NCBI RefSeq assembly: GCF_003334385.1
Contig: NZ_QOWN01000064.1
Reading direction: 5' to 3' (one strand)
Source of the DNA: Escherichia coli
GTDB lineage: Bacteria > Pseudomonadota > Gammaproteobacteria > Enterobacterales > Enterobacteriaceae
DNA length: 16,737 bases
The notes beneath the pieces are model-generated. The model did not search any database, was not told the DNA's origin, and worked only from the letters and a program-made list of their open reading frames with translations. Positions 5,941 through 7,801 of the stretch are shown piece by piece. The stretch's first letter is position 1, and each line of letters begins with the position of its first letter. A program made the translations under genes and the position numbers.

Positions 5941-6316
5941 ATTCAGCCGTTCCGTGCTGTATCATGGCCGTTGCCAGTGATGATGGCACCAGAACACGCA
6001 TACCCCGTAACGCCAGCTCAACGGGACGACCTGTCTCCGGGCAATACCCCATTACTTGCAGGCACTTCCGTACCCGGACGGCTTTAACATCATCCGGAGC
6101 ATCCGTGTTGTTCAACTGCTCACCATCGTCTGTGTGATTTTGATCAGCCCCGCTCTCATCAGAGTGCATAATGCCCTCCGGGGAAACAGCAAGCTCCTCT
6201 TCCCACTCAGACACACGTTGAGCAATATCCGCAGCACTCCCCGACATATCCGCCTCGCGCCCCAGCAGGCCAGCCAGTTGACGAAGACGATTCAGATTTT
6301 CTTCTTTTGTTGCCAT
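5933..6316 (-). CDS. FI: DNA packaging / head assembly protein FI
   Basis: Position between E and FII and an acidic central region are typical of gpFI. Start chosen at ATG 6314-6316 (MATKEENLNRLRQLAGLL...), which has an AGGAGG 6 nt upstream; the track ORF extends to 6364 from a non-ATG start. Sequence similarity to lambda FI is weaker than for neighbours. Confidence 0.75.
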   Translation of the reverse strand: MATKEENLNRLRQLAGLLGREADMSGSAADIAQRVSEWEEELAVSPEGIMHSDESGADQNHTDDGEQLNNTDAPDDVKAVRVRKCLQVMGYCPETGRPVELALRGMRVLVPSSLATAMIQHGTAEYA

Positions 6317-6330
6317 CTCAGCCTCCTGTG

Positions 6331-6360
6331 AAAAAAGACACGGGGGCATTTCGCCCCCGC
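6331..6360 (-). terminator. Intrinsic terminator-like hairpin immediately downstream of major capsid gene E
   Basis: Plus-strand CGGGGGC-atttc-GCCCCCG (stem 6341-6347 / 6353-6359), followed on the minus (transcribed) strand by TCTTTTTTC. Likely a partial terminator/attenuator or mRNA stabiliser. Confidence 0.4.
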
Positions 6361-6367
6361 TCACGGA

Positions 6368-7396
6368 TTATTTCACCTGTACCACCACAAACTCATCCGG
6401 ATCCGGCAGCACCATCAGCGGAGCGGACTGCGTCATGGTGAATTCACGGGCCGGATCGCCCACAGTCAGCCAGTGTTTCGGATAACGGGAAGAGGCCACC
6501 ACACCTTCGGACAACGCCTGCGCATCCTGAATGGCACCATAGCAACGAATGCCCTCTGCTGCCGTATTCCCCAGGACCAGTGTGCCCTCCGGCAGATAAC
6601 GTTTTTCGGTACCGTCCTCTGCCACATAAGACGTTTTCGCCACCACAATGGCCAGATCGCCGTAATACCCCTTGAAGGACACCACCGCCCCCAGGTCTTT
6701 CACTGCCGTTTCGAGTTGTGAATTTGAGCCGCGACGGGTATCCAGTTTTTCGCGGAACAGCTTAAAGCCATTCAGCAGACGCCAGACCGTACCGTCCATA
6801 ATGGCGATATTCACAAGGCCGCTGGCCTGATCGCAGTAGAGGTCAATATCATGCGTCGGATCAAACGTATCACGGTCCTGCTCAGACCATTTTTTACCGT
6901 CAGCCTGCTCAATGTTATTTCCTTCAGAGCGCCCGAAATCCACCTCGACAGTATCAAACTGATCCCCTTCCATGGTGTATTTGCCATACAGCACGGCATT
7001 CACCGCCTGCATTTCTTCCACCTGGACAATGGCGTGCTCTTCCTGTTTGAGGTTATCGGTAATGATACGCAGACGACGGTAGGCCGGGTCATTCAGCTGA
7101 GCCGGATCTTCACCAGGAAGGCGCTCAACCGCCTGCTGGTAATTAAATTCGTGTTTGGGCTTGACGTAGCCCGGACGTAACACGCGGGTTTCACCACCGC
7201 GATGGCGAAGCACTTTTCCTTCAACAACCGGGGAGACATAGGCTGCCACCGGCGTTTTTCCGGTAATTTTGTCCAGCATCACCTCTTCGGTGTGGAAATT
7301 CACCGTACGGCGGAAAAACAGCTCCAGAAACAGCGCACGGAATTTCACTTTTTGTTCGGTATAACCGAGTAACTGGCGGGTCGTAAACAATCCCAT
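6368..7396 (-). CDS. E: Major capsid protein E
   Basis: 342-aa ORF with long collinear matches to remembered lambda gpE (341 aa), e.g. VKPKHE, DPAYRRLRII, QVEEMQAV, YGKYTM, DTRRGSNS, LETAVKDLG, YPKHWLTVGDPAREFTMTQSAPLM. Confidence 0.93.
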   Translation of the reverse strand: MGLFTTRQLLGYTEQKVKFRALFLELFFRRTVNFHTEEVMLDKITGKTPVAAYVSPVVEGKVLRHRGGETRVLRPGYVKPKHEFNYQQAVERLPGEDPAQLNDPAYRRLRIITDNLKQEEHAIVQVEEMQAVNAVLYGKYTMEGDQFDTVEVDFGRSEGNNIEQADGKKWSEQDRDTFDPTHDIDLYCDQASGLVNIAIMDGTVWRLLNGFKLFREKLDTRRGSNSQLETAVKDLGAVVSFKGYYGDLAIVVAKTSYVAEDGTEKRYLPEGTLVLGNTAAEGIRCYGAIQDAQALSEGVVASSRYPKHWLTVGDPAREFTMTQSAPLMVLPDPDEFVVVQVK

Positions 7397-7424
7397 AAAT
7401 CAGTTCCTTTCATTCAGAAATCAG

Positions 7425-7446
7425 TCAGGCCACCATGGTGGCCTGA
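7425..7446. promoter_or_regulatory. Perfect palindrome CAGGCCACCATGGTGGCCTG in the D-E intergenic region
   Basis: 20-bp perfect inverted repeat at 7426-7445 (extendable by one pair), between the D stop (7454) and E start (7396). Could be an RNA hairpin or a protein-binding site. Confidence 0.35.
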
Positions 7447-7453
7447 TAACGTG

Positions 7454-7801
7454 TTACGGCAGAGCCGCGTGACTCAGGGCTGTACCGGCAAAGGCATTTG
7501 CCTTTTTGTGTTCATCCACACTGTCAGGCCAGCGGATTGCCTCCGTCGCAAAGGTCCCCGACTTGTAATAGGTCAGCACCGTCTCTGTGCCTTCAAGCGG
7601 CAGTACCAGTATGCCAGCCGCACTACCGGCTTTCTGTCCATCCCAGACCACCAGTTTCCCGCTGGCTTCATCCAGCATCAGGGGCGTCAGAGCCGGTGTT
7701 GCCTGAGAAATCCCGCTGCTGCCTGTGGCGGTATGAGCCGGATCATTACCGGCAAAAATACGTACTTCCGCACGTTGTTCAGTGATGGTTTTCGTCACCA
7801 T
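7454..7801 (-). CDS. D: Head decoration protein D
   Basis: 115-aa ORF with DPAHTAT, TPLMLD, KLVVWDG, YKSGTF, KKANAFAGTA motifs matching remembered lambda gpD (110 aa). Confidence 0.9.
   Translation of the reverse strand: MVTKTITEQRAEVRIFAGNDPAHTATGSSGISQATPALTPLMLDEASGKLVVWDGQKAGSAAGILVLPLEGTETVLTYYKSGTFATEAIRWPDSVDEHKKANAFAGTALSHAALP

What the first reader, a model, noticed from the sequence alone, without database searches (positions are those of the whole stretch)
7425..7446. Perfect 20-bp palindrome between decoration gene D and capsid gene E
CAGGCCACCATGGTGGCCTG is a perfect inverted repeat in a 57-bp intergenic gap. It could form an RNA stem-loop affecting D/E differential expression (a stem this long could stall exonuclease or ribosomes) or be a protein recognition site. 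It is too perfect to be incidental in so short an interval.
Basis: seen in the sequence. Interest (0 to 1): 0.3.

Follow-up and report, generated by a model that had tools for sequence, protein, structure and literature searches.

The report
Hairpin between phage head genes D/E
The palindrome is real. It is the phage-21-lineage version of a stem-loop that sits between the head-decoration and major-capsid genes in most lambda-like phages, so it is ordinary and its perfection is not conserved.

Summary
TCAGGCCACCATGGTGGCCTGA (7425-7446) is a perfect 22-bp palindrome in the 57-nt gap between a D/shp-type decoration gene (7454-7801, minus strand) and an E-type major capsid gene (6368-7396, minus strand). 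Only 3 of 1000 dinucleotide shuffles of the window give one as long.

The module is a phage-21-type prophage head operon, present in 1883 of 5426 complete E. coli genomes.

Among 117 distinct relatives only 61 keep the perfect palindrome. The 8-9 bp stem is almost invariant, while the central bases vary (AT, GC, AC, G14T). One relative has deleted the element.

Every lambda-like head module examined with a D-E gap of 36 nt or more carries a hairpin there on the coding strand. These include lambda, N15, phi80, Vibrio K243 and about 20 enterobacterial prophages. All but the Trabulsiella guamensis hairpin are followed by a U-run, and N15's record annotates its hairpin as a putative rho-independent terminator. 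The window's stem aligns in register with these, and a Cedecea prophage has the same stem plus U6.

The 21-type has lost the U-run. It is most likely an intercistronic mRNA hairpin, acting as a decay barrier or at most a weak terminator. No function has been tested. Low novelty.

The parts
7425..7446 (-). Perfect 22-bp palindrome. In the late mRNA (minus strand) it forms a hairpin with a 9-bp stem (UCAGGCCAC/GUGGCCUGA) and a 4-nt loop (CAUG).
   Evidence: I9; -17.1 kcal/mol, z -4.2; 3 of 1000 shuffles. The stem is nearly invariant and the loop polymorphic in 103 aligned haplotypes.
7397..7453 (-). The 57-nt D-E intercistronic gap that holds the hairpin and the ribosome-binding site of E.
   Evidence: Same length and layout in phage 21 M81255.
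7404..7410 (-). Shine-Dalgarno AAAGGAA of the major capsid gene, 7 nt before the AUG and 14 nt after the hairpin.
   Evidence: The phage 21 record annotates a putative ribosome-binding site at the equivalent position.
7454..7801 (-). Head decoration gene (lambda D / phage 21 shp homologue, 115 aa). Its stop codon UAA lies 7 nt upstream of the hairpin.
   Evidence: PHROG 49, E 7e-30.
6368..7396 (-). Major capsid gene (lambda E / phage 21 gene 7 homologue, 342 aa).
   Evidence: E 3.5e-189.
6331..6360 (-). Second hairpin, terminator-like (GCGGGGGCGAAAUGCCCCCGU followed by GUCUUUUUUC), in the E-FI gap. The capsid gene is therefore bracketed by stem-loops.
   Evidence: The equivalent hairpin after N15 gene 8 is annotated as a putative rho-independent terminator. 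Hairpins follow E in lambda, PhAER-5, Chi and K243.

Best explanation
The palindrome is the phage-21-lineage copy of an intercistronic stem-loop found in the late head operon of lambda-like phages, between the decoration gene and the major capsid gene.

It acts at the RNA level, on the coding (minus) strand. The late polycistronic transcript folds into a GC-rich hairpin of 8-9 bp. The hairpin starts 7 nt after the D stop codon, far enough that a terminating ribosome should leave it mostly intact. It ends 28 nt before the E start codon, upstream of an unstructured A/U-rich ribosome-binding site.

In most relatives the homologous hairpin is followed by a U-run and looks like an intrinsic terminator, which the phage's late antiterminator would read through. 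In the 21 lineage the U-run has been replaced by CUGACUGAUUUCUG and the stem extended by UCA/UGA. Termination is therefore probably weak or absent.

The most likely remaining activity is that of a stable hairpin. It would block 3'-to-5' exonucleolytic decay of the upstream D-containing message after endonucleolytic cleavage. It would also insulate the E ribosome-binding site from upstream structure.

The perfection of the palindrome through its centre is incidental. The central bases lie in the loop and vary among relatives. The two perfect alleles (centre AT and centre GC) may reflect hairpin-templated (quasipalindrome) mutation rather than selection.

Shown: the structure, its position, homology to the terminator-like hairpins, stem conservation, and the lack of a U-run. 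Inferred: the RNA-level role and the decay-barrier mechanism.
For: **Position.** A coding-strand hairpin is present in every lambda-like head module examined whose D-E gap is 36 nt or more. These are lambda, ev245, N15, phi80 and Vibrio K243, and about 20 species-representative genomes including Pluralibacter, Phytobacter, Trabulsiella, Citrobacter, Kluyvera, Klebsiella, Leclercia, Buttiauxella, Cedecea, Erwinia, Hafnia and Methylorubrum. All but the Trabulsiella guamensis hairpin are followed by a U-run, which is strand-specific and so argues for an RNA-level feature.

**Annotation.** The N15 record annotates its copy as 'stem_loop, putative rho-indep. transcription terminator', and annotates another one after the capsid gene.

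**Homology.**
- MAFFT and RNAalifold place the window's stem in register with the GCCGC/GCGGC stems of the others. One pair changes G-C to A-U in a compensatory way in 3 sequences.
- Cedecea L229/L230 have TAATCAGGCCAC-TCA-GTGGCC-TTTTTT. The window has TTATCAGGCCAC-CATG-GTGGCC-TGACTG.

**Population data.** In 103 aligned haplotypes, 3 of 18 stem positions are polymorphic against 221 of 446 third-codon positions of D and E (Fisher p = 0.007). In the loop, 3 of 4 positions are polymorphic.

**Stability.** -17.1 kcal/mol, z -4.2.

**U-run.** The U-tract score is 1.1 here against 4.3-5.0 for the lambda, N15, phi80 and K243 hairpins.

**Literature.** Intra-operon terminators in lambdoid late operons are described as common, with roles not known (PMC8022706).
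Against: - No transcript, half-life or protein data were available, so the function is inference.
- Within the 21-type population no compensatory double change was seen in the stem. There are only single changes. Some keep pairing by wobble (A8>G, C6>U) and some break it (U15>C, G17>A, G14>U/C).
- The 10 nt on the 5' side of the stem are also invariant. Stem conservation therefore cannot be separated from conservation of the whole gap.
- Providencia prophages with an 81%-identical capsid protein have a 26-nt gap and no hairpin. Chi and PhAER-5 have none either. The element is therefore dispensable in some lineages.
- One 21-type relative (L044) has deleted it.
- The haplotypes are phylogenetically related, so the Fisher test overstates independence.
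Confidence: 0.55

Rival explanations
1. It is still a working, partial intrinsic terminator. RNA polymerase that has not been modified by the late antiterminator stops here. This limits spurious expression of the capsid and tail genes in the lysogen, or attenuates downstream mRNA. Antiterminated polymerase reads through.
For: - The simple terminator scan lists it: 9 pairs, 6 of them G-C, tail CTGATTTCTG.
- Its homologues in other lineages have canonical U-runs, and the N15 copy is annotated as a putative terminator.
- This role has been proposed for intra-operon terminators in P22-like late operons (PMC8022706).
Against: - The three residues after the stem are C-U-G, and the U-tract score is 1.1 against 4.3-5.0 for the relatives.
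- The d'Aubenton-Carafa-type discriminant is negative, -23 to -40. The formula was recalled from memory and modern energy parameters were used, so this is indicative only.
- The 21 lineage has kept the stem for a long time without a U-run.
Confidence: 0.2
2. It is a relic with little or no present function: a former terminator hairpin drifting neutrally. Its perfect symmetry is produced by intrastrand template-switch (quasipalindrome) mutation, which tends to perfect inverted repeats.
For: - Perfection is found in only 61 of 117 haplotypes.
- There are mismatch variants and one complete deletion.
- The hairpin is absent from Providencia, Chi and PhAER-5 relatives.
- The two perfect alleles differ by a symmetric double change (AT versus GC), with one AC intermediate.
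- Quasipalindrome correction is an established mutational mechanism in E. coli (my own knowledge, not checked here).
Against: - The stem is markedly less polymorphic than synonymous sites in the flanking genes (p = 0.007).
- The same stem sequence is shared with Cedecea prophages whose capsid protein is only 57-58% identical.
- A hairpin is kept at this position across many genera with different stem sequences.
Confidence: 0.15
3. It tunes translation. The hairpin would stall or release ribosomes finishing D. Alternatively, it would nucleate a three-way fold in which the 3' end of D pairs with the E start region, so that translation of D opens E and keeps the two proteins near 1:1.
For: - The MFE fold of the 101-nt and 150-nt contexts pairs GCCCUGAGUCA (the end of D) with UGAUUUAUGGG (the start of E) around the hairpin.
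- The mean unpaired probability of the E ribosome-binding site is 0.39 here.
- D and E are needed in roughly equimolar amounts in lambda capsids (established knowledge).
Against: - The long-range pairing is G-U rich and is not predicted in lambda, N15, phi80, L220, L228, L230 or L226, where the unpaired probability is 0.50-0.68.
- No variation was available to test covariation.
- The hairpin lies outside the ribosome footprint at both the D stop and the E start.
Confidence: 0.07
4. It is a DNA-level site: a binding site for a dimeric protein, or a recombination or integration target.
For: - It has perfect dyad symmetry.
- Both common perfect alleles preserve symmetry at the centre.
- Half-site matches with one mismatch or fewer number 6 against 1.3 expected, but 2 of the 6 are the palindrome itself.
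Against: - There is no second copy of the full site, even allowing 3 mismatches.
- Half of the relatives are asymmetric.
- The homologues in other lineages are not dyad-symmetric through the loop and carry a strand-specific U-run.
- No regulator is known or expected in the middle of a late head operon.
Confidence: 0.03

Closest known systems
Stem-loop in the gene 7 - gene 8 gap of phage N15, annotated 'putative rho-indep. transcription terminator' (NC_001901.1 5980-6004), and the equivalent hairpin in the lambda D-E gap (NC_001416.1, about 6098-6124)
   Same: - It sits in the same gap, between the decoration and major capsid genes, on the coding strand.
- It is a GC-rich hairpin ending 22-28 nt before the capsid start codon.
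- The stems align in register, with one compensatory pair.
- A second hairpin follows the capsid gene.

   Different: - The lambda and N15 hairpins have a 5-bp GC core (6 bp in some lambda-type folds) plus A/U extension, followed at once by U7.
- The window's hairpin has a 9-bp stem, is a perfect DNA palindrome, and is followed by CUGACUGAUUUCUG with no U-run.
- About 12 extra nucleotides separate it from the Shine-Dalgarno sequence.
D-E gap hairpin of Cedecea-type prophages (L229, L230)
   Same: The 5' flank and stem are almost identical: T(A/T)ATCAGGCCAC ... GTGGCCT.
   Different: The Cedecea copy has a 3-nt loop and a U6 tail, which makes it a canonical terminator shape. It is not a perfect palindrome.
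Intra-operon intrinsic terminators of lambdoid late operons (for example at the end of the procapsid module in P22 and L)
   Same: These are hairpins inside a single antiterminated late operon, next to highly expressed capsid genes. Their function is unsettled (PMC8022706).
   Different: Those were predicted as full terminators with U-runs, and they lie in different, unrelated head modules.
Intercistronic stabiliser hairpins of polycistronic mRNAs (for example REP hairpins in the malE-malF gap; my own knowledge)
   Same: A stable stem-loop just 3' of a highly expressed cistron, without a terminator U-run. This is the proposed mode of action: a 3' exonuclease barrier.
   Different: There was no hit to any Rfam family. 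It is a single copy and phage-borne. The stabilising effect is not demonstrated here.

Membership tests
Lambda-like D-E intercistronic hairpin | Located in the gap between the head-decoration gene and the major capsid gene, on the coding strand | tested here: met
   The same position is occupied in lambda, N15, phi80, K243 and about 20 genera.
Lambda-like D-E intercistronic hairpin | Stem alignable with those of other members, with pairing kept through sequence change | tested here: met
   the stems align in register. Pair 21/28 is G-C in 15 sequences and A-U in 3 (window, phage 21, Cedecea). The stem is near-identical to Cedecea L229/L230.
Lambda-like D-E intercistronic hairpin | U-run immediately 3' of the stem, abutting the capsid-gene Shine-Dalgarno | tested here: not met
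   The tail is CUGACUGAUUUCUG, with a U-tract score of 1.1 against 4.3-5.0 in relatives. About 12 extra nt are present in the alignment.
Intrinsic (rho-independent) terminator | GC-rich stem-loop of 5-14 bp with a short loop | tested here: met
   9 pairs, 6 of them G-C, 4-nt loop.
Intrinsic (rho-independent) terminator | Run of U residues directly after the stem | tested here: not met
   the discriminant is negative on both stem definitions. There is no T-run on the + strand either.
Intrinsic (rho-independent) terminator | RNA 3' ends generated at the site in vivo or in vitro | not testable with these tools
   No transcript data were available. Term-seq for E. coli O157 Sakai exists (GEO accession cited in PMC7547250) but cannot be read here.
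Curated RNA families (Rfam 15) | Match at or above a family's gathering score | tested here: not met
   No hit in the window at gathering threshold. Only chance-level hits appear at E <= 10 around the site.
Dyad-symmetric protein operator | Symmetry conserved among relatives, and/or repeated sites | tested here: not met
   56 of 117 haplotypes are asymmetric or have lost the site. There is no second full site. Half-site matches are at most marginal.

The most novel reading that the evidence does not exclude
The 21-lineage hairpin may have been converted from a terminator into a different device. One possibility is a U-less, extended, perfectly symmetric stem kept for a specific interaction, such as an RNA-binding or processing factor that sets the D:E ratio. 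Another is a duplex or cruciform DNA site recognised by a host or phage protein. On this reading the palindrome-preserving AT/GC alleles reflect selection for symmetry rather than mutational bias.
Probability: 0.05. Interest if true: 0.4.

Novelty: new member of a known kind. Interest (0 to 1): 0.15.

Why it matters
It matters little on its own. The analysis shows that an eye-catching perfect palindrome is a lineage-specific form of a widespread hairpin that brackets the major capsid gene in lambda-like head operons.

The modest wider point is this. These intra-operon hairpins are conserved across many genera, yet their role has never been settled. Candidate roles are termination of non-antiterminated transcription, mRNA stabilisation, and insulation of the ribosome-binding site.

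The 21-type module is carried by about a third of complete E. coli genomes. It offers a natural variant that keeps the stem but lacks the U-run. Together with natural variants that lack the hairpin altogether (Providencia relatives and the L044 deletion), it could be used to separate the terminator role from the hairpin role.

Tried and rejected
- **Rfam.** At gathering threshold on the whole window, and at E <= 10 around the site, only chance-level matches appeared.
- **Prophage-encoded Pas sRNAs.** These are encoded in phage-like operons, with conserved neighbours such as RusA, TerB, antiterminator Q, LpxR and holin/lysozyme. The paper does not mention a decoration or head gene. Lead dropped.
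- **Translational-coupling fold.** A fold pairing the 3' end of D with the E start is predicted only in this lineage, not in seven other lineages. It is kept only as a low-probability rival.
- **Operator idea.** There are no further full sites, and the half-site excess is marginal.
- **Covariation within the 21-type population.** There was too little variation and no compensatory doubles.
- **Literature on the lambda or phage 21 D-E gap.** Searches found no experimental study. Three id look-ups for older work returned nothing: my guessed PMC ids for the Casjens & Hendrix lambda review, Sampson et al. 1988 and Liu et al. 2013. The EHEC Term-seq paper has no supplements held.
- **Strand check.** The opposite (+) strand has no T-run after the palindrome, so it is not a terminator for antisense transcription.

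Full report
**1. The observation**

The + strand at 7425-7446 reads TCAGGCCACCATGGTGGCCTGA. This is a perfect reverse-complement palindrome of 22 bp, not 20, with two 11-nt arms and no spacer (I9). It is the longest perfect palindrome in the window by a wide margin; the next have arms of 6. Arms of 11 or more arose in 3 of 1000 dinucleotide-preserving shuffles, and the naive expectation is 0.004 per window.

**2. Context**

All the genes here are on the minus strand.
- The ORF at 7454-7801 is a head-decoration protein (PHROG 49, E 7e-30).
- The ORF at 6368-7396 is an E-type major capsid protein (E 3.5e-189).
- They are flanked by the protease/scaffold gene upstream and FI downstream.
- The D-E stretch is 92% identical to phage 21 shp and gene 7 (M81255), and 98% identical to several recently deposited E. 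coli phages.
- A 261-nt piece centred on the gap is found in 1883 of 5426 complete E. coli genomes, at 2950 places, under 'head decoration protein | major capsid protein'. This is a very common phage-21-type (Jouyvirus-like) prophage head module.

On the mRNA the order is: D stop UAA, 7 nt, hairpin, 14 nt, AAAGGAA, 7 nt, AUG of E. As RNA the element folds into a 9-bp stem with a 4-nt loop, at -17.1 kcal/mol and z = -4.2 against shuffles.

**3. Close relatives**

I collected the module from IMG/VR in two ways. One was by capsid-protein similarity. The other was by a DNA pattern taken only from the segment downstream of the palindrome, so that the palindrome itself was not selected for. This gave 117 distinct D-to-E haplotypes.

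| Variant of the palindrome | Haplotypes |
|---|---|
| Perfect, centre GC (as in phage 21) | 40 |
| Perfect, centre AT (as in the window) | 21 |
| G14>T, breaking the top pair (8-bp stem, 6-nt loop) | 42 |
| Other single changes | the remaining few |
| 45-bp deletion (L044) | 1 |

- Among the other single changes, A8>G and C6>U keep pairing as G-U. U15>C and G17>A break a pair. There is also one 1-nt deletion and one AC centre.
- L044 lost the whole element, together with the last codons of D, by a deletion between CCTGA direct repeats.

In 103 haplotypes alignable without gaps:
- 3 of 18 stem positions are polymorphic, against 221 of 446 third-codon positions in D and E (Fisher p = 0.007).
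- 3 of 4 loop positions are polymorphic.
- The 10 nt on the 5' side of the stem are invariant too.

So the stem, and indeed the gap as a whole, is under constraint. Perfection through the centre is not. No compensatory double change was seen at this depth, and the haplotypes are not independent, so this is supportive rather than decisive.

**4. Distant relatives**

The phage N15 record annotates a 'stem_loop, putative rho-indep. transcription terminator' in the gap between gene 7 (decoration) and gene 8 (major capsid). It annotates a second one just after gene 8.

Folding the equivalent gaps shows a coding-strand hairpin followed by a U-run in lambda (AAAGGCCGCCUGUGCGGCUUUUUUU), ev245, N15, phi80 and Vibrio phage K243. 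A scan of one genome per bacterial species with a profile of five capsid proteins returned 28 loci.

- Every locus whose D-E gap could be extracted and was 36 nt or more has such a hairpin. The genera include Pluralibacter, Phytobacter, Trabulsiella, Citrobacter, Kluyvera, Klebsiella, Leclercia, Dryocola, Buttiauxella, Cedecea, Erwinia, Hafnia and Methylorubrum.
- Stems vary in sequence, and all but one are followed by a U-run. The exception is Trabulsiella guamensis, which has a different hairpin followed by a broken U-rich tail (CAGGTTTGTTTTC).
- The lineages without a hairpin have short or no gaps: Providencia (26 nt, although the capsid protein is 81% identical), Chi (12 nt) and PhAER-5 (overlapping genes).

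An alignment of 20 gaps puts the window's stem in register with the GCCGC/GCGGC stems of the others. Pair 21/28 is G-C in 15 sequences and A-U in 3. The Cedecea-type prophages have TAATCAGGCCAC-TCA-GTGGCC-TTTTTT, which is essentially the window's stem with a proper U-run.

The palindrome is therefore a homologue of the terminator-like D-E hairpin of lambda-like phages.

**5. What differs in the 21 lineage**

After the stem the window has CUGACUGAUUUCUG instead of U6-8. The UGA pairs with UCA and lengthens the stem. About 12 extra nucleotides separate the stem from the Shine-Dalgarno sequence.

I used a d'Aubenton-Carafa-type score. The formula was recalled from memory and applied with modern energy parameters, so it is indicative only.

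| Hairpin | U-tract score | Discriminant |
|---|---|---|
| Window and 21-type variants | 1.1 | -23 to -40 |
| Lambda, N15, phi80, K243 | 4.3-5.0 | +17 to +28 |

The tool's permissive scan does list the palindrome as terminator-like. The + strand has no T-run after it.

**6. Mechanism**

What is shown:
- a stable coding-strand hairpin at a conserved position;
- homology to terminator-like hairpins;
- a conserved stem and a free loop;
- no U-run;
- a second, more terminator-like hairpin right after the capsid gene (6331-6360), so that E is bracketed by stem-loops.

What is inferred:
- The element works in the late mRNA.
- Termination is at best weak, so the likeliest activity is that of a stable hairpin. 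It would act as a barrier to 3' exonucleases, protecting the D-containing message after cleavage. It would also insulate the unstructured E ribosome-binding site.
- In relatives with a U-run, it could additionally stop polymerase that has not been antiterminated.

The phage L genome paper notes that intra-operon terminators are common in lambdoid late operons, that 'their roles are not known', and offers the same two ideas (PMC8022706).

The symmetric AT/GC alleles, with one AC intermediate, fit either two transitions in an unconstrained loop or hairpin-templated correction. I cannot distinguish the two.

**7. Rivals**

- A still-active partial terminator: 0.2.
- A drifting relic perfected by template switching: 0.15.
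- Translational coupling through a three-way fold: 0.07. The fold is not seen in other lineages.
- A DNA-level protein site: 0.03. There are no other sites, half the relatives are asymmetric, and the homologues are asymmetric with a U-run.

**8. Novelty and verdict**

The kind of element is already annotated in N15 and is visible in lambda. The 21-type copy is not annotated in the records I retrieved, and I found no paper on it. It is a new member, a U-less and extended variant, of a known kind.

The claim that its perfection is meaningful, and the protein-site idea, are not supported. Interest is low at 0.15.

The most useful follow-up is transcript 3'-end mapping, plus arm-swap mutants in an inducible 21-type lysogen.

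Noticed in passing
window 13562-13667: AACCGGACATG occurs three times exactly, plus one near copy, in mixed orientation. It lies just upstream (in mRNA sense) of the terminase small-subunit ORF at 13012-13521(-). These are probably the cosB terminase-binding repeats of a phage-21-type cos site (I4/I10, 64).
   Followed up: partly
window 6331-6360 (minus strand): A terminator-like hairpin, GCGGGGGCGAAATGCCCCCGT followed by GTCTTTTTTC, sits in the E-FI gap. With the palindrome it brackets the major capsid gene. The equivalent hairpin is annotated in N15, and hairpins follow E in lambda, Chi, K243 and PhAER-5.
   Followed up: partly
L044 (IMGVR_UViG_2634166457_000005), D-E junction: A natural 45-bp deletion between CCTGA direct repeats removes the palindrome. 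It rewrites the D C-terminus (...ALSHAALP* becomes ...ALTDF*) and leaves the E ribosome-binding site intact. Whether that prophage is viable is unknown.
   Followed up: partly
Aeromonas phage AP1 MT713136.1 250152-250396: A 254-kb Aeromonas phage record holds 245 bp that are 96% identical to the first 245 nt of this E. coli capsid gene. The match starts one base before the ATG, and nothing is annotated there. It looks like an assembly chimera or contamination.
   Followed up: no
L212 (Collinsella sp. MAG contig) and L230 (Chryseobacterium sp. 18061 contig): Enterobacterial lambda-like head modules appear in assemblies labelled as an actinobacterial MAG (capsid 99% identical) and as a Chryseobacterium genome. 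The likely cause is binning error or contamination.
   Followed up: no
window 7408-7427 (minus strand mRNA: CCUGACUGAUUUCUGAAUGA): The 20 nt starting in the 3' arm of the hairpin contain UGA in all three reading frames (read directly).
   Followed up: no
window 7427-7440: The window allele contains GCCACCATGG, which matches the eukaryotic Kozak consensus, and a loop mini-ORF AUG-GUG-GCC-UGA. Both are absent from the equally common GC allele (CCGCGG), so they are coincidental.
   Followed up: yes
L214-L216 (Providencia alcalifaciens) and L232 (Trabulsiella guamensis): These prophages have capsid proteins 81% identical to the window's but differ in the D-E gap. Providencia has a 26-nt gap with no hairpin. 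Trabulsiella has an unrelated hairpin (AAUCGGGUC...GACCUGAUU). The gap element therefore turns over faster than the flanking genes.
   Followed up: partly
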